From a virus: a DNA stretch of 64,000 nt. Positions 38,562 to 63,512 of the stretch are shown one piece after another. Below the pieces are notes generated by a model. The model was not told the origin of the DNA. It saw nothing but the letters and a program-made list of their open reading frames with translations, and made no database searches. Where the stretch lies: positions 84,134 through 148,133 of the IMG/VR virus record IMGVR_UViG_3300023184_000035. The stretch is one strand, 5' to 3'. Position numbers and translations under genes: made by a program. The first letter of the stretch is position 1; every line of letters begins with the position of its first letter.

Positions 38562-41500
38562 ATGTCAAAACACGTTATTATCGAAAGTTACGGATTAAAC
38601 CCAGCCACTAAAACGGTCACAGTCACCGGCAAAAACATCCGCAAAGAACAACTGCTGTTGATCACCAACGTAACTGCCAATGCCAGTTATCAAGGCACAG
38701 TGATCTACAATTTCTCAGATCCCAATCTTGGTGCCACATCATACACCACCAGTGTCAGTACCGACACTGGCCTAGAAACCACAACCGTTGTGTTGAGTTA
38801 CAACACAGCGTCAATGTTGAGCACAGACAAACTGGCCATCATGACCGAGGAAAGTTATCAGGAAATCATGCCGGATGAAACCCTGCGCGATCCCGTGGAC
38901 AAACTGCGTGTGAGCACACCACAGGCCTTGATTGACACTGACTTTGAATACGGTTTACAGCCCACCAAATGGGAACAGCTGAACCTGTTGAACAATCGTC
39001 CCACAGGGTTTTATGATGTTACCTCACCTGCCACAATTTCCAACGTGGCTGCGTCAGGCAACACTGTCACCGTCACAGGCAGCATTGCTACTTTTACCGC
39101 CACCATTGCCACCAACACCCTGACTGTGACTGCTTTGAGCTCAGGCCTAATAGGCAACGGCATGGTCATCACCGGTGCAGGTGTCACTGGCAACTCTGTA
39201 GTCACCGCTTTAACTGGCAATTCGTCAGGCGGCATTGGCACATACACCTTGAGTCAAAGCAGCACTGTAATCAGTCCAGTCACAATGACAGCTACACCGG
39301 CCACAGGCACACCGGTGTTTGTGCAAGGCACCCTTGACACCAACTACGCAGACGGTTGGTGGACTGTGCAGACCAGTTCGGGCACTGCATTCACCTATCA
39401 AACCTTGGTCAATCCTGCTGCTGCCTTGTATGATTCACAGAAAACTTATGTGTTCCCTGGTGCTTGGTTCACCGGTGCTGTGTATCCCATGGCTGCTGGC
39501 AACATTTCCAACGTGGGCAATGTGCTCACCATTACCACAACTTACAATCATGGTCTACGTGTGGGTGACGGCGTGGCCATTGCCAACGTCACTGCATCGG
39601 CCAATGCGCCCAACGGACCATTCACTGTGGTGGCAACTCCCACCACAAACACATTCACAGTGAACACAGCCAACACTCCTGGCACCAGCATCACTGCCAC
39701 AGCCAACAACAGCATTTTCCCAAGACCCCTGGGCTACACACAACAACGTGCGTTTGACGGTGGTGTGCAGTTCACAAACTTGGTGCCATATCATGGTTAT
39801 CAAGTGATTCGCCAAACTCGACGATACTTCCGTTATCAGTCTGGCAAAGGTATTCAGTTCTCAACAGGCAGTATTTTAAAACCTGCCTTGTCCCTGACCA
39901 CAATGACCAGTTCAGGCACCACTGTCACAGTATCTTGCCAACAACCACACGGCTTGTTGCCCGGAGCAGGTATCAAGGTTGTGGGTGCTGCACAGACCGC
40001 CTACAACGGCACAGGCACAGCAGGTGGCAGCACTTACACAGTGGTCACAGTGCCCACACCCAGTAGTTTCACATACACTGCTGACTCAACTCCTTCGGCC
40101 AGTCCAGCCACATCCTCATCAGCAGGCAACACAGGTATTATTGTGAGTCCCACGGCCTGGTATGGCAGCAGCAACAGACTGGGCATGTTTGACAGCCAAA
40201 ACGGTTTTTACTTTGAATTTGACGGACAAACCCTGTATGCTGTGAGACGCAGCAGTACCACTCAGTTGTCAGGCCTGGTCACTGCCACCAATGGTTCAGA
40301 TTCCATCACTGGCAGCAACACCAAATTCAGCACACAGCTCACTTCGGGTGATTTCGTTGTTATTCGTGGACAAAGTTACATTGTCAACGCCATCATTAGT
40401 GACACATCAATGACTATAAGTCCTGAGTATCGTGGTGCCACCACAGTGGCCAACAGCACTCAGATCAGCAAGACCATCAACACTAGAACTGCGCAGAGCA
40501 GTTTCAACATTGACAAAGTGGATGGCACAGGTGCCAGTTTGTTCAATCTGGACTTGACCAAGATGCAGATGTTCTACGCTGACTATTCTTGGTACGGTGC
40601 TGGTGCCATCAGATACGGATTTAAAAACAACCGCGGTGAAGTCATATACTGCCATCGCATGCCCAACAACAACTTGAACACCGAAGCATTCATGCGTTCA
40701 GGTAACTTGCCGTCGCGCTATGAGACCAATACCTTGCCAATATACACAGCGTTGACTGCTTCTGTGAGCAGTGCGCTGACCACAGGTGCCACAATCAGCG
40801 TGGCAGATGCCAGCACATTTCCCTTGGCTGGCAACATACGCATAGTTGAAAGCAAAGCCACAGGTGGCAATGTGGAAATCATCAACTATTCCACACGAAG
40901 CAACACTGTGTTGACTATTGGTTCAGCAGGCACAGCAGGACGTGCGGTGACTGGCGGCGCAACAACAGCACAGACATTCACTTATTCAGCCACATCACCC
41001 ACAGCGGTAGAATTGTACAGTCCGCAAACTGCCAGCACAATCAGTCACTGGGGATCATCAGTCATCATGGACGGACGCTACGACGATGACCGATCATTTG
41101 TGTTCTCGGTGGGTTCTTTGGCTCCTGTTGCCAACGTGGCACAGAACGTGCGACAGCCTATCATGAGTGTTAGATTGGCACCCAGTGTGGACAACGGCCT
41201 AACTGGTCTGATTGGTGTGCGTGAGATTTTGAATCGCATGCAGTTGACACCGCGTGGTATTGACTGTTACACTTCAGGCACTGCTTACCGCATTGACTTG
41301 TTGTTGAATGCTAGACTCAGCGGGGGCACCTGGACCAGCGTGGGCGGATCCAGCTTGGCACAGTACATATTCCACACTGCTGGACAAACAGCCGCAGCCG
41401 GTGAGGTTATCTACTCATTCTTTACCAACACAGGATCAGCCACCAGTCAAGACTTGGCCTTGGTGCGTGACATTGGCACCAGTATTTTGAGTGGTGGTAA

Positions 41501-41639
41501 TACCACCACTGCCAGCGTGACTCAGGCCAATTTGTATCCAGATGGACCGGACGTGCTGACTGTTTGCGCTACCAATATCACTGCAACTGGCACCAATACC
41601 ATCAACAGTCGTTTGAGTTGGACAGAAGCACAGGCATAA
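38562..41639 (+). CDS. Large virion structural protein
   Basis: DKLRVS.PQALIDTDFEYGLQ.TKWE, RQTRRYFRYQSGKG, DYSWYGAG motifs of large myophage virion proteins. Confidence 0.8.
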   Translation: MSKHVIIESYGLNPATKTVTVTGKNIRKEQLLLITNVTANASYQGTVIYNFSDPNLGATSYTTSVSTDTGLETTTVVLSYNTASMLSTDKLAIMTEESYQEIMPDETLRDPVDKLRVSTPQALIDTDFEYGLQPTKWEQLNLLNNRPTGFYDVTSPATISNVAASGNTVTVTGSIATFTATIATNTLTVTALSSGLIGNGMVITGAGVTGNSVVTALTGNSSGGIGTYTLSQSSTVISPVTMTATPATGTPVFVQGTLDTNYADGWWTVQTSSGTAFTYQTLVNPAAALYDSQKTYVFPGAWFTGAVYPMAAGNISNVGNVLTITTTYNHGLRVGDGVAIANVTASANAPNGPFTVVATPTTNTFTVNTANTPGTSITATANNSIFPRPLGYTQQRAFDGGVQFTNLVPYHGYQVIRQTRRYFRYQSGKGIQFSTGSILKPALSLTTMTSSGTTVTVSCQQPHGLLPGAGIKVVGAAQTAYNGTGTAGGSTYTVVTVPTPSSFTYTADSTPSASPATSSSAGNTGIIVSPTAWYGSSNRLGMFDSQNGFYFEFDGQTLYAVRRSSTTQLSGLVTATNGSDSITGSNTKFSTQLTSGDFVVIRGQSYIVNAIISDTSMTISPEYRGATTVANSTQISKTINTRTAQSSFNIDKVDGTGASLFNLDLTKMQMFYADYSWYGAGAIRYGFKNNRGEVIYCHRMPNNNLNTEAFMRSGNLPSRYETNTLPIYTALTASVSSALTTGATISVADASTFPLAGNIRIVESKATGGNVEIINYSTRSNTVLTIGSAGTAGRAVTGGATTAQTFTYSATSPTAVELYSPQTASTISHWGSSVIMDGRYDDDRSFVFSVGSLAPVANVAQNVRQPIMSVRLAPSVDNGLTGLIGVREILNRMQLTPRGIDCYTSGTAYRIDLLLNARLSGGTWTSVGGSSLAQYIFHTAGQTAAAGEVIYSFFTNTGSATSQDLALVRDIGTSILSGGNTTTASVTQANLYPDGPDVLTVCATNITATGTNTINSRLSWTEAQA

Positions 41640-47704: not shown

Positions 47705-48319
47705 ATGGAGCTAACATTACAACAACTAAAACAAATGGTGCCAGGCATACCCTATGCCGAACACTGGCTGGAAGCCCTGGATCAACTGCTGCCAGACTAC
47801 GAAATCAACACACCCGAACGCATTGCGGCTTTCATAGCACAGTGCGCACATGAGTCAGGTGGGTTTAAATTTATCAAAGAAAATTTAAATTACAAAGCCG
47901 CAAGTTTGCGCACAGTGTTTGGCAAATATTTCCCCACGGATGACTTGGCCAATGCCTATGCCAAAAAGCCTGAAATGATTGCCAACCGAGTGTATGCATC
48001 ACGCATGGGCAACGGTGACGAACACTCAGGTGATGGCTATCGCTATTGTGGTCGTGGACTTATCCAACTAACTGGCAAAAGCAACTATGAAAACTTTGCT
48101 GCCAGCTTGGAAATATCACCTGAAGAAGCAGCAGAATACCTGGCCACATTTGAAGGCGCCGCACAAAGCGCCTGCTGGTTCTGGGAAAGTAATAACTTGA
48201 ATGTGGAGGCTGACGCTGGCGACATCAAAAAGATGACCAAGAAGATCAATGGTGGTTATATTGGTTTAGAAGATCGTATTCATCACTATGAGAATGCATT
48301 AAAAATCATGGGAGCATAA
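47705..48319 (+). CDS. Endolysin, glycoside hydrolase family 19
   Basis: AAFIAQCAHESG, ENLNY, GRGLIQLTGK.NY, TKKINGG..GL.DR. Confidence 0.92.
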   Translation: MELTLQQLKQMVPGIPYAEHWLEALDQLLPDYEINTPERIAAFIAQCAHESGGFKFIKENLNYKAASLRTVFGKYFPTDDLANAYAKKPEMIANRVYASRMGNGDEHSGDGYRYCGRGLIQLTGKSNYENFAASLEISPEEAAEYLATFEGAAQSACWFWESNNLNVEADAGDIKKMTKKINGGYIGLEDRIHHYENALKIMGA

Positions 48320-54525: not shown

Positions 54526-56781
54526 ATGCAAAACAATCCCGAAATTGAACACATTGTAGAACAAGCAGTTAAAATTGCTCGAGACAAACATCACGAATAT
54601 GTGATAACAGAACATTTGTTGCTGAGCCTGGTCAGGCATGCACCGTTTAGAAAAACTCTAGACCGTTTTGGTGCGGAAGTTGCACAGATGGAGCAAGAAG
54701 TTGACACATATCTTGACAGTTTGAAACACCTTGTCAAAGCTGATGCTGACTTGCAACCAAGAAAAACACAGACCCTAGAACGCCTGTTTAATCGTGCCAA
54801 TGTGCAGGTCATGTTCACCGGACGCAGAACACTCACAACACTGGATTTGTACCTGAGTATCATGGCCGAAACCAACAGTCATGCACACTACTTCTTGCTC
54901 AAATACGGTGTGAAGAAAACTGAATTCTCAGACTTCTTTACCAAGAATTACACAGCTGGTGAAGCGTCCAAGATGAACATAAATCAAGCCAATGATATCT
55001 TGAACGAGTATTGCACCAATCTTACTGAAATGGCCAAGGCTGATCAGTTGGAACCGCTAATTGGACGCCAAACCGAACTGCACGAAATGATCACAGTAAT
55101 GGCACGCCGCTTCAAGGCCAATGTGCTCATGGTGGGAGATCCAGGTGTGGGCAAGACCTGCATTGTGGACGGACTTGCCCAAGAAATCATTGCTGGTCGT
55201 GTGCCTAAATTCATACAAGATCACGAAGTATGGGGGCTGGAAGTTGGCAGTTTACTTGCAGGATCCAAGTACCGTGGCGAGTTTGAAGAAAAGTTCAAGG
55301 CTGTGATTGCTGCTCTGGAAACCAAAAAGAACTGTATCCTGTTCATTGACGAAGCACACACCATGAAAGGTGCTGGTGCAGGGTCACAAAGTAGCCTGGA
55401 CTTTGCCAACATGTTGAAACCCGCAATCACCAAAGGACATTTGAAAGTGATTGCGTCAACCACCTGGGAAGAGTACTACGAATCATTTGAAAAGGATCGC
55501 GCACTCATGCGCAGGTTCTATCGTATCAGTATTGACGAGCCAGATACAGAAACCACAGAGAGAATCCTTGCTGGTCTAAGCCCCAGACTGGAAAAGTTTC
55601 ATGATGTAGTAATTGATCGCGCAGCCATGTTGGCCGCTGTGGAACTGGCCAACCGTTATATTCATGATCGTAAAAATCCTGACAAAGCCATTGACTTGTT
55701 GGATGCGTCATGCGCACGTGAACGTGTGAAAGATCAAGGTACCGTCACCATCACCAAGGAACTGATCCAAGCACAGGTAAGTCGTGTGGCCGGGGTGCCA
55801 GTGGATCGACTGCAAAATGAACGCAGTGCAAAGATCATGGATTTGGATTCAAACATCAAACAGAAATTGTACGGGCAGGATTCAGCCGTGGATGCTGTGC
55901 TGGAACGGGTGTATATCAACTTTGCCGGTATTGGCAATGACAAACGACCCATCTCAAGTTTCTTGTTCCTGGGCCCAACTGGCACAGGTAAAACTGAACT
56001 GGCCAAACTGTTGAGCGAACACTTGGAAATGAAACTGTTGCGCTATGACATGAGTGAGTACCAAGAAAAACACACAGTGTCAAGTTTAATTGGTGCACCT
56101 CCGGGCTATGTGGGCTTTGAAGATGGCAATGTGGGCGGCGGCAAACTGATTTCGGACATCAGCAAGAATCCCTATGCTGTGATCTTGTTTGATGAAATTG
56201 AAAAAGCACACTCGGATGTGACCAACATCTTGTTGCAGATGCTGGACGAAGGACATATCACCAGTGCAAACGGCAAACGAGTGGACGTGAAAAACTGCAT
56301 CATCATCATGACAAGTAACTTGGGCGCACAAGCCAACGATGCCAACAACATTGGGTTTGGTAGTTTGGAGAAATCGGGTGAAGAAGATCGTGCCATGAAA
56401 GACTTCTTCCGTCCTGAACTGCGCAATCGTATTGATCGTATCTGCAAGTTCAACAAACTGGACACACTGGCCATCAAGAAGATTGTGGTGAAGTTTGTGG
56501 ATGAACTCAAAGCCAGTATGACACACAAGAACATTCGATTGGTGCTGACCGAACCGGTTATTGACCATCTAGCTGACAAGGGCTATGACAGCAAAATGGG
56601 CGCACGTCCGCTGAGTCGCAAGATTGATGAACTGATCCGTGTGCCATTGAGCAAGCGGATCTTGTTTGATCGACTGGAAAACTGTACAATCACTGCTGTG
56701 ATGACAGAGGACGCTGTGGAGTTCATGATCGAACAGGACACTGTGACCAGTGTGAACACAGAAGGAATTATCATTGTATAA
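54526..56781 (+). CDS. clpA: ClpA-like AAA+ chaperone
   Basis: Clp N domain (HEY…EHLLL), two Walker A (GDPGVGKT, GPTGTGKT), no M-domain, IGF loop, GARPL. Confidence 0.9.
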   Translation: MQNNPEIEHIVEQAVKIARDKHHEYVITEHLLLSLVRHAPFRKTLDRFGAEVAQMEQEVDTYLDSLKHLVKADADLQPRKTQTLERLFNRANVQVMFTGRRTLTTLDLYLSIMAETNSHAHYFLLKYGVKKTEFSDFFTKNYTAGEASKMNINQANDILNEYCTNLTEMAKADQLEPLIGRQTELHEMITVMARRFKANVLMVGDPGVGKTCIVDGLAQEIIAGRVPKFIQDHEVWGLEVGSLLAGSKYRGEFEEKFKAVIAALETKKNCILFIDEAHTMKGAGAGSQSSLDFANMLKPAITKGHLKVIASTTWEEYYESFEKDRALMRRFYRISIDEPDTETTERILAGLSPRLEKFHDVVIDRAAMLAAVELANRYIHDRKNPDKAIDLLDASCARERVKDQGTVTITKELIQAQVSRVAGVPVDRLQNERSAKIMDLDSNIKQKLYGQDSAVDAVLERVYINFAGIGNDKRPISSFLFLGPTGTGKTELAKLLSEHLEMKLLRYDMSEYQEKHTVSSLIGAPPGYVGFEDGNVGGGKLISDISKNPYAVILFDEIEKAHSDVTNILLQMLDEGHITSANGKRVDVKNCIIIMTSNLGAQANDANNIGFGSLEKSGEEDRAMKDFFRPELRNRIDRICKFNKLDTLAIKKIVVKFVDELKASMTHKNIRLVLTEPVIDHLADKGYDSKMGARPLSRKIDELIRVPLSKRILFDRLENCTITAVMTEDAVEFMIEQDTVTSVNTEGIIIV

Positions 56782-58435: not shown

Positions 58436-59938
58436 ATGACAACTGTAGTAATCATGCCCGGGGGTTTTCACCCTTTTCACCCAGGACACTTGGCGCTGTA
58501 TCAATCAGCACAACGTGCCTTTCCTGATGCCGAAGTTTACGTGGCCGCTACCAATGACAAGAGTGACAGGCCTTTTGATATCTCAGACAAACAAAAAATT
58601 GCCTATGCCGCAGGAGTTGAACCTGGACATTTTGTTCAAGTCAAGTCGCCATTTCGTGCAGAAGAAATTGCCAGTCAGTACAATCCCAATCAGGATGTTT
58701 TGATTTTTGTGCGCAGTGACAAAGACGCCAACACACAACCTCAGGCAGGTGGAGTTAAAAAAGACGGGTCTGCCAGTTATCTGCAACCGTTGTTGGGTGC
58801 CCGACGATTGGAACCATTCAGCAAGCATGCCTACATGGCGTATTTGCCCACTGTGGAATTTGGTCCTACTGACATGACTTCTGCCACACAGATACGAGCG
58901 GCATGGCCCACGCTCACACCCAAACGTAGACTGGCCCTGGTCATGAGCTTGTATCCCAACACACAACAAGATCCAGCAGGCGCACAGGATATTGTACGCA
59001 TATTTGATCAAACCATTGGCGGGATTGATGAAGACATCAGTCGTAGAGGATTCCTACGAGGCATGGGTGCAGCAGCTGGCTTGGCCGCAGCCGGCACAGT
59101 TGGTGCACAGGAAACTTCCAAACCTAATTTTATAGCCATTGTCAAAATTGGCGATGATGTTCGACAACTTGATCTTGGAAACAAATTTAACAGTTCCCAA
59201 GAAGCCTTGGAATTTGTTGGTAACATCTTGTCCAAAAAAGGACTGCAAGGTTACACTGTGAACATTGCTCGTGGTCAACCCAAGACAAATGAGAACCAAG
59301 GCTGGGCAGCAACATTGGAATCAGACGGCATCACCACAGGAACTGGTGTCACAGGCGGCATGCATGCTGGATATCAAGATCGTTATAACCAGCCCATTGA
59401 TGAACGTGACCTTGGTTCTAAGTTGGGTAGCAAGCGTGACCAGGGCAAAAGTGTTCGCAAGTGGCGCAAAGAGCGTGGGCTTGATGAGCAAGACTACTTG
59501 GACGAAGCTCGCACTGACCCCATCCAAGCTGCCACTGTGGACTTTTATCAAAATCAAGTTGGTGATGTTGATAAAAAGCCTGTGGACAACTATCGAGAAA
59601 TTGCTAGAAAATTACTGGGGCAAACAGAAAATCCTGGCATGCGTAAGAAAATCATGGATATTCTTGTGCAAGGAAATAAAAATCCCTACATCCAAGGCGG
59701 CATCATAACCACAGTGGCTGCCATAGTAAGTGGTGGGATTTTGAGCAGTGCCAATCGAATGGGCCTTACCCCACAACAAACCAACATGATGTTGCAGGCC
59801 ATATTAAACACAGTGGTTCCCACTGTGGTGTCTAGACTCAACGGCAAGAGTTGGGCTGATACTGCCAAATACACCCTGGCCTCAGCAGGCATAGGCACAG
59901 GCATTGCTGCCATGACCGAAACAGGTCGCAAAAAATAA
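58436..59938 (+). CDS. Modular protein: HIGH-family cytidylyltransferase-like domain plus appended modules (internal Tat-like signal)
   Basis: PGGFHPFHPGH, SATQIR; after IDE at aa 199 SRRGFLRG + hydrophobic stretch. Confidence 0.8.
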   Translation: MTTVVIMPGGFHPFHPGHLALYQSAQRAFPDAEVYVAATNDKSDRPFDISDKQKIAYAAGVEPGHFVQVKSPFRAEEIASQYNPNQDVLIFVRSDKDANTQPQAGGVKKDGSASYLQPLLGARRLEPFSKHAYMAYLPTVEFGPTDMTSATQIRAAWPTLTPKRRLALVMSLYPNTQQDPAGAQDIVRIFDQTIGGIDEDISRRGFLRGMGAAAGLAAAGTVGAQETSKPNFIAIVKIGDDVRQLDLGNKFNSSQEALEFVGNILSKKGLQGYTVNIARGQPKTNENQGWAATLESDGITTGTGVTGGMHAGYQDRYNQPIDERDLGSKLGSKRDQGKSVRKWRKERGLDEQDYLDEARTDPIQAATVDFYQNQVGDVDKKPVDNYREIARKLLGQTENPGMRKKIMDILVQGNKNPYIQGGIITTVAAIVSGGILSSANRMGLTPQQTNMMLQAILNTVVPTVVSRLNGKSWADTAKYTLASAGIGTGIAAMTETGRKK

Positions 59939-60950: not shown

Positions 60951-63512
60951 ATGAACATTCATGAGTTGTCTACCTATAATCTTGCCGACGCAGTAAAGTT
61001 TCACCGCCGTCTCAATCCCAGAATCTGGGGGCGAGACGAGCATTTGCTTCCTGAAGTGCGTGAAAAATTACTCACCATTGCTGAGGACTTTCAAGAATTC
61101 TTGGGCGTTGACGATCTCAATGTTCAAGACATCACCATATCAGGCAGCAACGCAGCCTACTCCTATACAAAAAATTCTGACATTGACCTACACCTTGTGG
61201 TCGAGATGCCTGACGATCCTGTGTATCAGGAGCTGTTCACGGCAAAAAAATACCAATACAACTCTGAGCACAACATACGGATTGGTGGGGCCGAAGTAGA
61301 ACTGTATGTTCAGCCTGCAGATCAAGCGCACCACAGTCAAGGCATTTACTCGGTAAAAGACGGCGAGTGGATTCAAGTGCCGCAACGCAAACGTGCGCAG
61401 ATAGACGATACCTGTGTGCGTGACAAAACAGCAGATTTAGATTCAAGAATTCATGCTGCTGTCAAAAGTAAAAACATTGATGCCATCAGCACACTGTGGA
61501 CCAAGATTAAAACCATGCGTCAAGCAGGACTTGAACAACATGGTGAGTTTGGTTGTGAAAATATCTCTTTCAAATTGTTGCGCAACCAGGGTTGCATCCG
61601 ACTGCTTAAAGATGCGATGACTGCTGAAAAAGATCGCGGACTCAGTTTGCGTGAAACTCCTGCAAAACCATTCCGTTATGGATACGGTGCAGAAGTTGAC
61701 GAAGCCAGTCTAGCAGACATGCGATCAGCATTTGCTGCCACTGATGCCACACGCAAGCAAGAAGTGTTTCACAGTCCAGACGAATACAACAAGGTCATGA
61801 AGCAACGACAGGCCGCTGCTGATGAGCGTCAAGAAAAAATTGTAAAGATATCACGAGGCCCAGTAAAACCCTGGCCCATGGGTGTAAAAGAAGGCATGCA
61901 AAGTCAGCCTTACAGCACCAGTGATGGTGTTGCTGCCAGCACCAAACAGTTTTTAGAAGATGCAGAGTCTGATGACCAAACTCTTGTGCATGACTTTATT
62001 CAACACACTGCCATGGAACTGGGCATAGATCCCTTGCCTGAAATTCAGTTGCACACCGACCCTGAATGGAGCACACACAATCACAGTTTTGGTCGTTATG
62101 ACCCTGACACACATACGTTGAATGTCAGCATGCCCAATCGCCACATCCTGGATGTGTTGCGCACAGTGGCACATGAATTGGTGCATTGCAGTCAAAATCA
62201 ACAGCATGGTCACTTGCCTGATGATGCAGGTGAAACTGGCAGTGACTGGGAAAATGATGCCAATGCCCGAGCTGGTATCATCATGCGTGACTGGGCCAAC
62301 ACCCATCCCGAACATTTTGAATTGCCGGCTCTGCGCGAGAGTGTGAGTGATTACCAAATACACGATACTGAAAAATTGGATCGTGTGCTGGCCAAATGCT
62401 GTCAAATGATTGAACGTGGACAACAAACGGATCCTGAACGTTATGGGCAGGTGGCTGCGTGTATAATTGATCCTGATCACAACTATGTGTATGGCATCAA
62501 CTTGCCTGGCGCTGATGGCCGACGCCGACATGCTGAACGTGTGGCCATAGACCGATATCGTAAAACACATGGTGATGTTCCTGAAGGCAGTATTGTGGTC
62601 ACCACACTGAGTCCTTGCAATGCACCCATGGATGAACGTGCAGGGAAGAGTTGCAAAGACCTGTTGAATTCAGTGGGCATACACAAAGTGTATTGTGGAT
62701 ACATTGACCCTACTCAGCATGACGATGCCGACGCTGACTTCACTGTGGGGCTCACACAAAATGATGAGTTATGGGAAGCATGCAAAGCATTTGCTGACAC
62801 ATTCCTGCATGAAGATGAGCTAGAAGAAGGTTGGCGCAGTGCATTGGCCGGAGCCGCTGCCGCAGGTGCCATGGCATTTACACCAGCACCAGCCAACTCC
62901 ACAGCCGCACCTGCATTAAATCCCGCAGCACAACCCGCTGCCGTTCAACAAGTACAACAGACTGGGCCACAAGCTGCATTGACCAAAGCCGCACAGGCAG
63001 CAGGCATCAAAGGTACAGAACTGGCGCAGTTCATGGCACAATGTGAACATGAGAGTGGTAACTTTGCACACCTGGAAGAACTGGGCGGTAAAAATTATCT
63101 TGCCAAGTACGATCTCACAGTGAATCCTGCCAAGGCCAAGGCCCTGGGCAACACTCAAGCCGGAGACGGTGCCAAATACAAAGGACGTGGGTTTATACAG
63201 ATCACAGGCAAAGCCAACTATGCCAGTGCTGGACAGGCCCTGGGCATAGACCTAGTGAGCAATCCTGAGCTGGCTGCCAAACCTGACGTGGCTGCCAAAG
63301 TTGCTGTGTGGTACTGGCAGAATCGTGTGAAACCGTATGTGCAAGACTTTAGTGACACACGTGGGGTTACCAAACGCATCAATCCTGGCTTGCAAGGCTT
63401 GCAAGACCGAGTGGACAACTTCAAAGATTATCAACAACAAACAGCCACTGTGGCTGCACCACCAGCTAGAGTGGCAGCCGCACCACAGGCTCAACCAGGA
63501 CCAGCAGCATGA
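60951..63512 (+). CDS. Multidomain protein: Pol-beta-type nucleotidyltransferase + zincin + Zn-deaminase + GH19 lysozyme
   Basis: GSNA.Y.Y…SDIDLH…ELYVQ; AHELVH…END; HAE…SPC…C; AQCEHESG…GRGFIQITG..NY…TKRIN. Confidence 0.85.
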   Translation: MNIHELSTYNLADAVKFHRRLNPRIWGRDEHLLPEVREKLLTIAEDFQEFLGVDDLNVQDITISGSNAAYSYTKNSDIDLHLVVEMPDDPVYQELFTAKKYQYNSEHNIRIGGAEVELYVQPADQAHHSQGIYSVKDGEWIQVPQRKRAQIDDTCVRDKTADLDSRIHAAVKSKNIDAISTLWTKIKTMRQAGLEQHGEFGCENISFKLLRNQGCIRLLKDAMTAEKDRGLSLRETPAKPFRYGYGAEVDEASLADMRSAFAATDATRKQEVFHSPDEYNKVMKQRQAAADERQEKIVKISRGPVKPWPMGVKEGMQSQPYSTSDGVAASTKQFLEDAESDDQTLVHDFIQHTAMELGIDPLPEIQLHTDPEWSTHNHSFGRYDPDTHTLNVSMPNRHILDVLRTVAHELVHCSQNQQHGHLPDDAGETGSDWENDANARAGIIMRDWANTHPEHFELPALRESVSDYQIHDTEKLDRVLAKCCQMIERGQQTDPERYGQVAACIIDPDHNYVYGINLPGADGRRRHAERVAIDRYRKTHGDVPEGSIVVTTLSPCNAPMDERAGKSCKDLLNSVGIHKVYCGYIDPTQHDDADADFTVGLTQNDELWEACKAFADTFLHEDELEEGWRSALAGAAAAGAMAFTPAPANSTAAPALNPAAQPAAVQQVQQTGPQAALTKAAQAAGIKGTELAQFMAQCEHESGNFAHLEELGGKNYLAKYDLTVNPAKAKALGNTQAGDGAKYKGRGFIQITGKANYASAGQALGIDLVSNPELAAKPDVAAKVAVWYWQNRVKPYVQDFSDTRGVTKRINPGLQGLQDRVDNFKDYQQQTATVAAPPARVAAAPQAQPGPAA

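What the first reader, a model, noticed from the sequence alone, without database searches (positions are those of the whole stretch)
59024..59113. Cryptic internal Tat-like signal peptide immediately after a putative prohead-protease site
Seen: in the 500-aa ORF 58436-59938 the cytidylyltransferase-like domain ends at …GGIDE (E199). It is followed directly by DISRRGFLRGMGAAAGLAAAGTVGA-QE: a near-canonical twin-arginine motif (S-R-R-x-F-L), an Ala/Gly-rich h-region and a signal-peptidase-like VGA end. Known: Tat signals act at N-termini and export folded proteins, and T4 prohead protease gp21 cuts after Glu in [IL]-x-E. Inference: head maturation cuts at IDE, leaving a packaged fragment whose new N-terminus is a Tat signal. 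After ejection into the cytoplasm, the host Tat machinery could then export the folded effector. The signal would stay masked during synthesis so the protein can be packaged. I am not aware of this being described.
Basis: partly seen in the sequence, partly recalled or inferred. Interest (0 to 1): 0.9.

Follow-up and report, generated by a model that had tools for sequence, protein, structure and literature searches.

The report
Buried Tat export signal in phage polyprotein
An uncultured T4-related giant phage carries a genuine bacterial Tat export signal 200 residues inside a modular protein, directly behind a head-protease-type cut site; about a hundred related phage proteins keep this layout, which suggests (untested) that cutting exposes an export address on a cargo piece.

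Summary
Residues I197-E226 of the 500-aa ORF 58436-59938 read IDE|DISRRGFLRGMGAAAGLAAAGTVGA|QE. The segment passes NCBIfam's Tat-signal cut-off. E199, D200 and RRGF are invariant in 16 homologues.

It begins an 87-aa module (D200-E286) inserted into a modular protein whose pieces always join at [ILVM]-x-Glu. An unbiased scan of viral contigs found 55 signal-like RRGFLxGxGAA contexts. In 45 of them such a site ends 2-5 residues upstream, against a 5.9% background. With the first scan's loci these make 43 distinct combinations of upstream module and cargo.

Cargo behind the signal is periplasm-type (LysM, SLT, GH19, TonB-C, M48). Other modules are cytoplasm-type. One ORF holds two such signals.

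A syntenic complete relative and four other relatives encode a T4 gp21-type protease and Gp23. Many cargo genes start with T4-like capsid-targeting leaders.

Modular cleavage is well supported by comparison. Packaging, injection and Tat export in the next host are inferred. This protein lacks the leader.

I rejected an internal start, chance and an ordinary endolysin.

This scan reported the same phenomenon before, on at least seven other genomes. I found no paper describing it.

The parts
58436..59938 (+). 500-aa modular protein (P0001): nucleotidyltransferase domain, inserted Tat-signal module, conserved tail
58436..59032 (+). N-terminal cytidylyltransferase-like domain, residues 1-199 (HxGH motif at 15-18); no capsid-targeting-type leader
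   Evidence: Pfam PF01467 20.7 bits and TIGR00125 25 bits, both just under cut-off. AF2 model gives a moderately confident fold for 1-194.
59024..59032 (+). I197-D198-E199: module junction of the [ILVM]-x-Glu type, the putative prohead-protease site
   Evidence: Homologues have VAE, VDE, IDE, LDE, MAE or VSE at this position. Homologues without the insert read GGVAE|NQGW. E199 is invariant.
59033..59107 (+). Tat-type signal peptide D200-A224: n-region DIS, twin arginine R203-R204 (59042-59047), Gly/Ala-rich h-region, V-G-A end
   Evidence: TIGR01409 17.2 and 21.6 bits against a cut-off of 16.7. Conservation. AF2 leaves it unstructured.
59108..59293 (+). Cargo domain Q225-E286, a small beta-beta-alpha-beta fold of unknown function that ends in its own junction T-N-E
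   Evidence: AF2 pLDDT about 79 for module residues 32-81. The same cargo family occurs in other address formats. No PDB match.
59294..59938 (+). Conserved remainder N287-K500: further short modules joined at IDE and LDE, and a hydrophobic glycine-rich C-terminal region (about 419-495)
   Evidence: no family match

Best explanation
What it is. Residues 200-224 are a working Tat-type export signal. It belongs to an 87-residue cassette (signal plus a small cargo domain) that has been inserted into a modular 'beads on a string' protein of a T4-related jumbo phage.

How it most likely works, step by step:
1. Modules of such proteins are separated by cleavage after Glu in [ILVM]-x-E.
2. The cut is most likely made by the lineage's T4 gp21-type prohead protease inside the assembling head.
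3. Cleavage after E199 would leave a fragment that starts D-I-S-R-R-G-F-L. That is a minimal N-terminal Tat signal.
4. Cleavage after E286 would free it from the downstream modules.
5. The fragment would be injected with the DNA into the next host's cytoplasm.
6. The host Tat system would export it to the periplasm, and signal peptidase would trim it after V-G-A.

Status of each part. Shown here: the signal, the cassette nature, the junction rule, and the split between periplasm-type and cytoplasm-type cargo. Inferred: which protease cuts, packaging, injection, and export after injection.
For: The signal is genuine.
- TIGR01409 scores above its cut-off.
- SRRGF, the Gly/Ala h-region and the [VL]-x-A end are conserved across 66-92% identical homologues.

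It is an insert.
- Homologues read GGVAE|NQGW where the window reads GGIDE|[87 aa ending TNE]|NQGW.
- Sister contigs L002 and L003 differ by a 127-aa Tat module bounded by VDE and VTE.

The junction rule holds.
- All other inserts in the family begin and end at [ILVM]xE.
- The neighbouring polyprotein varies from 853 to 2081 aa by module swaps at such sites.
- QGVAE-type junctions fill the related polyproteins.

The enrichment is strong.
- With E-D fixed by the pattern, the residue two before the Glu is I, L, V or M in 43 of 51 contexts, against 33% background.
- In the unbiased scan, 45 of 55 signal-like contexts have [ILVM]xE ending 2-5 residues before RR, against 5.9% background.
- Over all fetched viral loci, 99 of 121 signal-like RRGFLxG sites follow such a junction. 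These fall into 31 cargo clusters and 43 combinations of upstream module and cargo.

The compartment logic fits.
- Behind Tat signals lie LysM+SLT, TonB_C/TolA_C, M48 and GH19.
- Elsewhere in the same ORFs lie nucleotidyltransferase, deaminase, ParB, GNAT and Zeta-toxin kinase modules.
- L048 holds two Tat modules in one 1084-aa ORF, which only makes sense if the modules are separated.

A bacterial control behaves as expected. The same motif in bacterial genomes has a Met 1-4 residues before the E-D in nearly all genuine signals.

A suitable protease is present.
- Peptidase_S77 and Gp23 occur in G006, G007, G009, G010 and G001.
- G006 is syntenic with the window: ClpB, this gene, orf314 and the polyprotein, at 47-66% identity.
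- The G006 scaffold protein is dense in [ILVM]xE, and its capsid protein has LAE|S at the expected maturation point.
- T4-family prohead proteases all cut after Glu (PMC5694885, PMC9026906).

Leaders and delivery.
- Cargo genes start MRAxEFxxE, and one starts MKTYQFITE.
- T4 can deliver packaged fusion proteins into cells (PMC9026906).
Against: - No experiment exists for any member.
- P0001 starts MTTVVIMPGG, with no capsid-targeting-type leader.
- The window's own 148-kb record holds neither the protease nor the capsid gene. It is only 42% complete, so this is uninformative.
- Pfam's Tat model scores below its cut-off for this copy.
- The same cargo family also occurs behind a plain N-terminal Tat signal (P0124) and behind a leader with no signal at all (P0128). 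So neither unmasking nor export is obligatory for it.
- Where the signal follows a 9-10-residue leader directly, it is already exposed at synthesis.
- Internal Tat signals can act without prior cleavage in dual Sec-Tat membrane proteins (PMC3471235, PMC5449189).
- 8 of 51 contexts have T, A or E instead of I, L, V or M two residues before the Glu.
- The contexts are related sequences, so the p-values overstate independence.
- The full-length AF2 model is poor, mean pLDDT 47.
Confidence: 0.42

Rival explanations
1. The signal works in the producing cell, not after injection. Either the polyprotein is cut in the cytoplasm by some Glu-specific protease and the freed module is exported, or the host Tat system recognises the internal signal by loop insertion and signal peptidase releases the cargo. 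The product would be a periplasmic phage protein made during infection, for example for superinfection exclusion or cell-wall remodelling.
For: - The same cargo family exists behind an ordinary N-terminal Tat signal (P0124).
- Leader-plus-signal genes have the signal at the N-terminus from the start.
- P0001 lacks a capsid-targeting-type leader.
- Internal Tat signals function in dual Sec-Tat proteins (PMC3471235, PMC5449189).
- The neighbouring polyprotein carries an HExxH zincin module that could be a processing enzyme.
Against: - The junction motif has Glu before the cut, the hallmark of T4-family prohead proteases, which act inside proheads (PMC5694885, PMC9026906).
- The polyproteins mostly start with T4-like capsid-targeting leaders.
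- Without cleavage, cytoplasm-type modules downstream of the cargo would be dragged across the membrane: Zeta-toxin kinase, GNAT and an HD-type motif (LLHDVLED, read from sequence).
- Two signals in one ORF (L048) also need cleavage.
Confidence: 0.3
2. The segment is an uncleaved membrane anchor. The full-length protein would sit in the inner membrane with the nucleotidyltransferase in the cytoplasm and the rest outside or in the membrane. The RR motif would only set the topology.
For: - The protein has a further hydrophobic, glycine-rich C-terminal region.
- AF2 draws residues 198-219 as a helix.
Against: - The h-region is Gly/Ala-rich and weakly hydrophobic, typical of Tat signals and not of membrane spans (sequence; one search gives a best 12-residue Kyte-Doolittle mean of 1.41).
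- A conserved [VL]-x-A signal-peptidase end follows it.
- Most homologues lack the segment altogether yet keep both flanking parts. The conserved tail would then have opposite topology in close relatives.
- The same cassette precedes soluble periplasmic domains elsewhere.
Confidence: 0.12
3. An internal in-frame translation start just upstream makes the Tat-signal protein separately. The long ORF would then be two overlapping products.
For: - The residue six before RR (seven before it in L007) is V, I, M or L in homologues.
- Some relatives read ...ADMNRRGFL, with a Met two residues before RR.
Against: - At that position the codon is ATT in the window, GTA in L002-L004, TTA in L007 and GTG only in L018. 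A start codon is therefore not conserved.
- No Shine-Dalgarno-like sequence lies upstream in the window.
Confidence: 0.04
4. The signal is a relic. A Tat-exported gene was captured with its signal, and the signal is now functionless.
For: - The cassette is clearly mobile.
- One relative has the cargo with no signal (P0128).
Against: - SRRGF, the h-region character and the peptidase end are kept under selection across diverged homologues and 31 cargo clusters.
- The periplasm-type nature of the cargo is also against it.
Confidence: 0.05

Closest known systems
T4 internal proteins IPI, IPII, IPIII and Alt: capsid-targeting sequence, gp21 processing after Glu, injection with the DNA
   Same: - The lineage has a T4-type head module: Gp23, Peptidase_S77 and a scaffold rich in [ILVM]xE.
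- Cargo genes sit in a hypervariable locus and start with leaders such as MRAxEFxxE and MKTYQFITE.
- The junctions have Glu before the cut.
   Different: - Here many enzymes and small domains are strung into polyproteins of up to 2081 aa, with internal junctions.
- Some modules carry bacterial export signals.
- P0001 itself has no leader.
- No processing or packaging has been shown.
Bacterial Tat (twin-arginine) signal peptides
   Same: - S-R-R-x-F-L consensus, weakly hydrophobic Gly/Ala h-region and an A-x-A-type end.
- Passes TIGR01409.
- The cargo in relatives is periplasm-type.
   Different: - It lies at residue 200 of the translation product instead of the N-terminus.
- In bacterial genomes the same motif has a Met 1-4 residues upstream in nearly all genuine signals.
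Bipartite presequences of thylakoid-lumen proteins (from general knowledge, not tested here): a stromal peptidase removes the first address and exposes a Tat-type signal
   Same: Two addresses in series. Proteolytic removal of what lies in front would expose a Tat signal for a second transport step.
   Different: - The first 'compartment' here would be a phage head, and the transfer an injection into another cell.
- The piece in front is a whole enzyme domain, not a transit peptide.
Dual Sec-Tat membrane proteins with an internal Tat signal (actinobacterial Rieske proteins; PMC3471235, PMC5449189)
   Same: A twin-arginine signal that is not at the N-terminus of the polypeptide.
   Different: - Those signals follow Sec-inserted membrane spans and stay as the last span.
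- Here a soluble 199-residue domain precedes the signal and a signal-peptidase site follows it.
Processed ejection proteins of giant phages phiKZ, 201phi2-1 and SPN3US (PMC5694885, PMC9026906)
   Same: Many head-packaged proteins are cut after Glu by a gp21-related protease, with several sites per protein.
   Different: - The motif there is A/S/G-x-E, and long propeptides are removed.
- I found no report of export signals behind the sites in the papers searched.

Membership tests
Tat (twin-arginine) signal peptide | Consensus S/T-R-R-x-F-L-K with an invariant RR | tested here: met
   S202-R-R-G-F-L-R208; R203, R204, G205 and F206 are invariant in 16 homologues.
Tat (twin-arginine) signal peptide | Curated profile score | tested here: inconclusive
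   TIGR01409 gives 17.2 bits against a cut-off of 16.7, and 21.6 bits for the module alone. Pfam PF10518 gives 17.8 bits against a cut-off of 22.7. Relatives reach 30.6 bits.
Tat (twin-arginine) signal peptide | Tripartite build: short n-region, weakly hydrophobic h-region, c-region with an A-x-A-type peptidase site | tested here: met
   DIS / GMGAAAGLAAAGT / VGA. Homologues keep [VL]-x-A while the h-region varies conservatively.
Tat (twin-arginine) signal peptide | Position at the N-terminus of the protein | tested here: not met
   It starts at residue 200 of a 500-aa ORF with no conserved start codon in front. It would be N-terminal only after cleavage at E199.
Tat (twin-arginine) signal peptide | Tat-dependent export of the passenger | not testable with these tools
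   Needs tat+ and tatC-null cells. Indirect support: periplasm-type cargo in relatives.
T4-type head-packaged, gp21-processed cargo protein | The phage encodes a gp21-family (Peptidase_S77) prohead protease | tested here: inconclusive
   Absent from the window's 148-kb record, which also lacks the capsid gene and is 42% complete. Present in the syntenic complete relative G006 and in G001, G007, G009 and G010.
T4-type head-packaged, gp21-processed cargo protein | N-terminal capsid-targeting leader ending in [ILV]-x-E | tested here: not met
   P0001 starts MTTVVIMPGGFHPF, and the frame is closed 3 codons upstream. Many other cargo genes of the lineage do have such a leader.
T4-type head-packaged, gp21-processed cargo protein | Cleavage after Glu in a short hydrophobic-x-Glu motif | tested here: inconclusive
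   The motif is present (IDE199, TNE286) and coincides with module borders family-wide. Actual cleavage cannot be tested here.
T4-type head-packaged, gp21-processed cargo protein | Presence in the virion and delivery into the host | not testable with these tools
   No cultured member with the RRGFL form of the cassette was found among the three closest isolates checked.
Cytidylyltransferase-like nucleotidyltransferase (PF01467 / TIGR00125) | Profile match and HxGH motif | tested here: inconclusive
   20.7 bits against 21, and 25 bits against 27.7. HPGH at residues 15-18 is present in the sequence.

The most novel reading that the evidence does not exclude
A large uncultured clade of T4-related jumbo phages uses a two-step address code. 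Cargo is first sent into the phage head, as modular polyproteins with T4-like leaders. The head protease then cuts the polyproteins after [ILVM]-x-Glu. This exposes Tat-type (and in some cases Sec-type) signal peptides on selected fragments. After injection, the new host's own export machinery carries those fragments, which include wall-binding, wall-cutting, TonB/TolA-like and protease domains, into its periplasm within moments of infection. That would be a route for phage effectors into the periplasm that has not been described.
Probability: 0.4. Interest if true: 0.9.

Novelty: new variant of a known kind. Interest (0 to 1): 0.8.

Why it matters
Phage proteins injected with the DNA are known to act in the cytoplasm, for example T4 IPI and Alt. 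If injected fragments can be passed on to the periplasm by the host's own Tat system, phages would have a way to act on the envelope before any phage gene is expressed. Possible uses are superinfection exclusion, wall remodelling, and interference with Tol/Ton systems.

It would also show that a head protease can serve as a switch between two addresses. And it would show that a large clade of jumbo phages encodes dozens of small proteins as cleavable polyproteins.

The hypothesis is directly testable. The T4 packaging system already delivers foreign proteins fused to the capsid-targeting sequence.

Even the safer part would change how these genomes should be annotated. That part is the existence of modular polyproteins joined at Glu sites, with export signals marking the periplasm-type modules.

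Tried and rejected
- Internal translation start. Rejected because the codon is not a conserved start: ATT, GTA, TTA, GTG.
- Chance motif. Rejected: it is the only Tat-like site in a real gene of 148 kb, and it is conserved.
- 'It is just the endolysin.' Each genome has a separate free-standing GH19 endolysin without a signal. In the window this is 47705-48319, phrog_181, 261 bits.
- T4 late promoter TATAAATA near the gene. None found; there are 3 in the window, not above chance.
- Function of the cargo domain. No PDB sequence match (best E 0.16), no Foldseek match (best E 0.08) and no Pfam or PHROG family.
- C-terminal region in the ESM Atlas. Scores were 0.78 or lower, so uninformative.
- Full-length AF2. 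Mean pLDDT 47; usable only for rough domain limits.
- Literature. No paper combines 'capsid targeting sequence' with 'twin-arginine'. 'QGVAE' finds only alpha-synuclein papers. A 2026 Tat review does not mention phage-delivered substrates.
- Cultured relatives. Vibrio phage 2.275.O, Pseudomonas phage PA5oct and Sinorhizobium phage Phosso have capsid proteins 66% identical to G006's. They have no in-frame RRGF[L] cassette. Other RRxFL variants were not searched.
- The 359-kb JGI contigs (L002-L005) could not be searched whole.
- P0001 has only one weak hit among deposited phage genomes.
Full report
OBSERVATION.
ORF 58436-59938 (+) encodes 500 residues. Window 59024-59113 is I197-E226: IDE followed by DISRRGFLRGMGAAAGLAAAGTVGAQE. 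The coordinates and the sequence in the finding are exact.

The N-terminal part is cytidylyltransferase-like at borderline scores: PF01467 20.7 bits against 21, and TIGR00125 25 against 27.7. It has an HxGH motif.

The twin-arginine segment scores 17.2 bits with NCBIfam TIGR01409 (cut-off 16.7), and 21.6 bits when the module is scored alone. Pfam PF10518 gives 17.8 bits, below its cut-off of 22.7.

It is the only Tat-like site in a real gene of the 148-kb record.

WHERE THE WINDOW COMES FROM.
The window is the last 64 kb of a 148-kb IMG/VR virus record, estimated 42% complete. A virion protein (38562-41639) is 37-44% identical to structural proteins of T4-like cyanophages.

The record holds neither a Gp23 capsid gene nor a Peptidase_S77 gene. 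The head module must therefore lie in the missing part.

A complete 352-kb relative, G006, is syntenic with the window at 47-66% identity: ClpB-like gene, this gene, orf314 and the large polyprotein. G006 carries the T4 head module: Gp23 (331 bits), a scaffold protein, and Peptidase_S77 (95 bits). Four further relatives (G001, G007, G009, G010) have both genes.

By capsid protein, the closest isolates are Vibrio phage 2.275.O, Pseudomonas phage PA5oct and the Rak2/GAP32 group, at 64-67% identity.

THE PROTEIN IS MODULAR AND THE SIGNAL IS AN INSERT.
The protein has about 2900 metagenomic homologues. Most read ...GGVAE|NQGWAAT... The window reads ...GGIDE|DISRR...(87 residues)...KTNE|NQGWAAT....

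Every other length difference in the family is likewise an insert that begins after, and ends in, a hydrophobic-x-Glu triplet. Examples are LEE...VDE, VTE...MEE, VDE...LSE, LKE...IME and IDE|DYVEE|.

Two nearly identical 359-kb contigs differ in another gene in the same way. L003 reads MRAREFVAE|AKTVEYNG... L002 reads MRAQEFVDE|DLTRRGFLRG...(127 residues, a different cargo)...ESVTE|AKTVEYNG....

The gene after next (853 aa in the window) is 1269, 1432 and 2081 aa in relatives, through module swaps at the same kind of site.

Related polyproteins are full of QGVAE| and GSLNE| junctions.

THE SIGNAL IS UNDER SELECTION.
In 16 homologues of 66-92% identity, E199, D200, R203, R204, G205 and F206 are invariant. 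S202, L207 and G209 are nearly so.

AlphaFold leaves the signal unstructured in the module model. It folds the cargo as beta-beta-alpha-beta with pLDDT about 79.

First scan. A scan of IMG/VR for E-D-x-[ST]-R-R-G-F-L-x-G gave 88 in-frame sites in 51 distinct contexts. The residue two before the Glu is I, L, V or M in 43 of 51, against 33% for all xxED in the same loci.

Second scan. A scan with nothing fixed upstream (RRGFLxGxGAA) gave 55 distinct signal-like contexts. In 45 of them an [ILVM]xE site ends 2-5 residues before RR. This holds for 33 of the 38 contexts that lie at least 40 residues inside an ORF. The background is 5.9% of positions.

These contexts are related, so the p-values overstate independence. 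Over all fetched viral loci, 99 of 121 signal-like RRGFLxG sites follow such a junction. These fall into 31 cargo clusters, 33 upstream-module clusters and 43 combinations.

Bacterial control. In 185,579 bacterial and archaeal genomes the E-D pattern gave 26 in-frame matches. In nearly all of those that are Tat signals, a Met lies 1-4 residues before the E-D, so the signal is N-terminal.

COMPARTMENT LOGIC.
Behind Tat signals lie these domains:
- LysM plus SLT transglycosylase (L064)
- TonB_C/TolA_C (L057, which is a member of the P0001 family)
- M48 peptidase (L104)
- GH19 (G006, L026, L067)

The other modules of the same ORFs are nucleotidyltransferase, deaminase, ParB, GNAT, Zeta-toxin-type kinase and an HD-type motif (read from sequence).

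L048 has two Tat modules about 600 residues apart in one ORF.

These arrangements make sense only if the modules end up as separate proteins. They also say the signal really means 'periplasm'.

ADDRESS FORMATS OF THE WINDOW'S CARGO FAMILY.
The cargo family of the window occurs in five formats:
- inside nucleotidyltransferase polyproteins
- behind a T4-like leader, a basic spacer, VDE| and a Tat signal (P0122)
- behind the same leader, VDE| and a Sec-type signal (P0127)
- behind a plain N-terminal MSEDLSRRDFIKG (P0124)
- behind a leader with no signal at all (P0128)

WHICH PROTEASE.
All characterised gp21-family prohead proteases cut after Glu (PMC5694885, PMC9026906).

In G006 the scaffold protein is dense in [ILVM]xE. 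The capsid protein has LAE|S where T4 gp23 is matured (the alignment to T4 is from memory).

Cargo genes start MRANEFLIE, MRLVEFVTE, MRALDFILE and MRATDFIIE. One relative starts MKTYQFITE. This is close to the T4 capsid-targeting sequence, which I recall as MKTYQEFIAE. PMC9026906 confirms a 10-residue targeting leader, and that packaged fusion proteins are delivered into cells.

This makes the head protease the best candidate, but nothing shows cleavage. P0001 itself has no leader.

RIVALS.
- Internal start. Rejected because the codon is ATT, GTA, TTA or GTG in different relatives.
- Plain membrane anchor. Unlikely because of the weak h-region and the conserved peptidase site, and because most homologues lack the segment.
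- Export in the producing cell. This remains a serious rival, either after cytoplasmic cleavage or by loop insertion of an internal signal as in dual Sec-Tat proteins (PMC3471235, PMC5449189). Leader-plus-signal genes expose the signal from the start, and P0124 shows ordinary export suffices for this cargo.
- 'It is the endolysin.' Does not hold. The window and its relatives have a separate signal-less GH19 endolysin.

NOVELTY.
I found no paper joining capsid targeting with Tat signals. A 2026 Tat review does not mention phage-delivered substrates.

The closest analogy I know is the bipartite presequence of thylakoid-lumen proteins (general knowledge).

Earlier notes of this scan describe the same layout on at least seven other genomes, with the same reading. 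I reached my reading before I looked them up. They are not independent evidence.

VERDICT.
- Observation: confirmed.
- The Tat signal, the cassette nature and the junction rule are well supported by comparison.
- Protease-driven unmasking in the head, followed by injection and Tat export, is coherent and testable but unproven. I give the whole chain about 0.4.

Noticed in passing
window 60951-63512 (+): 853-aa polyprotein: nucleotidyltransferase-like (phrog_36119), HExxH zincin, cytidine-deaminase and GH19 modules. The GH19 module is preceded, right after LEE626, by a Sec-like hydrophobic stretch GWRSALAGAAAAGAMAFTPAPA. Relatives have 1269-2081-aa versions with other modules swapped in at LxE junctions. 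A similar 'E|GW...' Sec-type signal precedes the window's cargo family in P0127.
   Followed up: partly
window 47705-48319 (+): Free-standing GH19 endolysin without a signal peptide (phrog_181, 261 bits). This is the likely lysis enzyme, so the GH19 in the polyprotein is a second copy.
   Followed up: partly
window 32069, 46526, 63509 (gene starts); G006 194866-199861: Genes starting with T4 capsid-targeting-like leaders: MRMRDIIME, MKINDIIKE and MRAHEFLRE in the window; MRANEFLIE, MRLVEFVTE, MRALDFILE and MRATDFIIE in G006. The one at 63509 is ParB-like.
   Followed up: partly
window 54526-56781 (+) and relatives (L002 5215-8332): A phage-encoded ClpA/ClpB-like AAA+ unfoldase (751 aa) lies just upstream of the cargo locus. 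A DnaJ-like gene lies next to it in relatives.
   Followed up: no
L048 10700-13951 (-): One 1084-aa ORF with two separate Tat-signal modules: QLDE|IDRRGFLRG... and DMNE|DISRRGFLRG....
   Followed up: partly
L057 1804-3066 (+): A member of the same nucleotidyltransferase family whose Tat module carries a TonB_2/TolA C-terminal-type domain (62.6 bits). This could be a mimic of, or competitor for, host Ton/Tol systems.
   Followed up: no
P0085, P0088-P0092, P0100 (301-303 aa); L018/L054: Natural short forms of the protein that stop just after the Tat cargo (...NQGWAATYEDYVEERRS) and lack the hydrophobic C-terminal region.
   Followed up: no
P0077, P0124 (C-termini): These metagenomic proteins end in ...IGRAHV. 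By my reading this is a translated Illumina adapter at a contig end, an artefact rather than biology.
   Followed up: no
G006 101183-101497 (+): A small phage gene with an N-terminal RRRF motif and a lipobox (LLTGC): a possible Tat- or Sec-exported lipoprotein, unrelated to the cassette.
   Followed up: no
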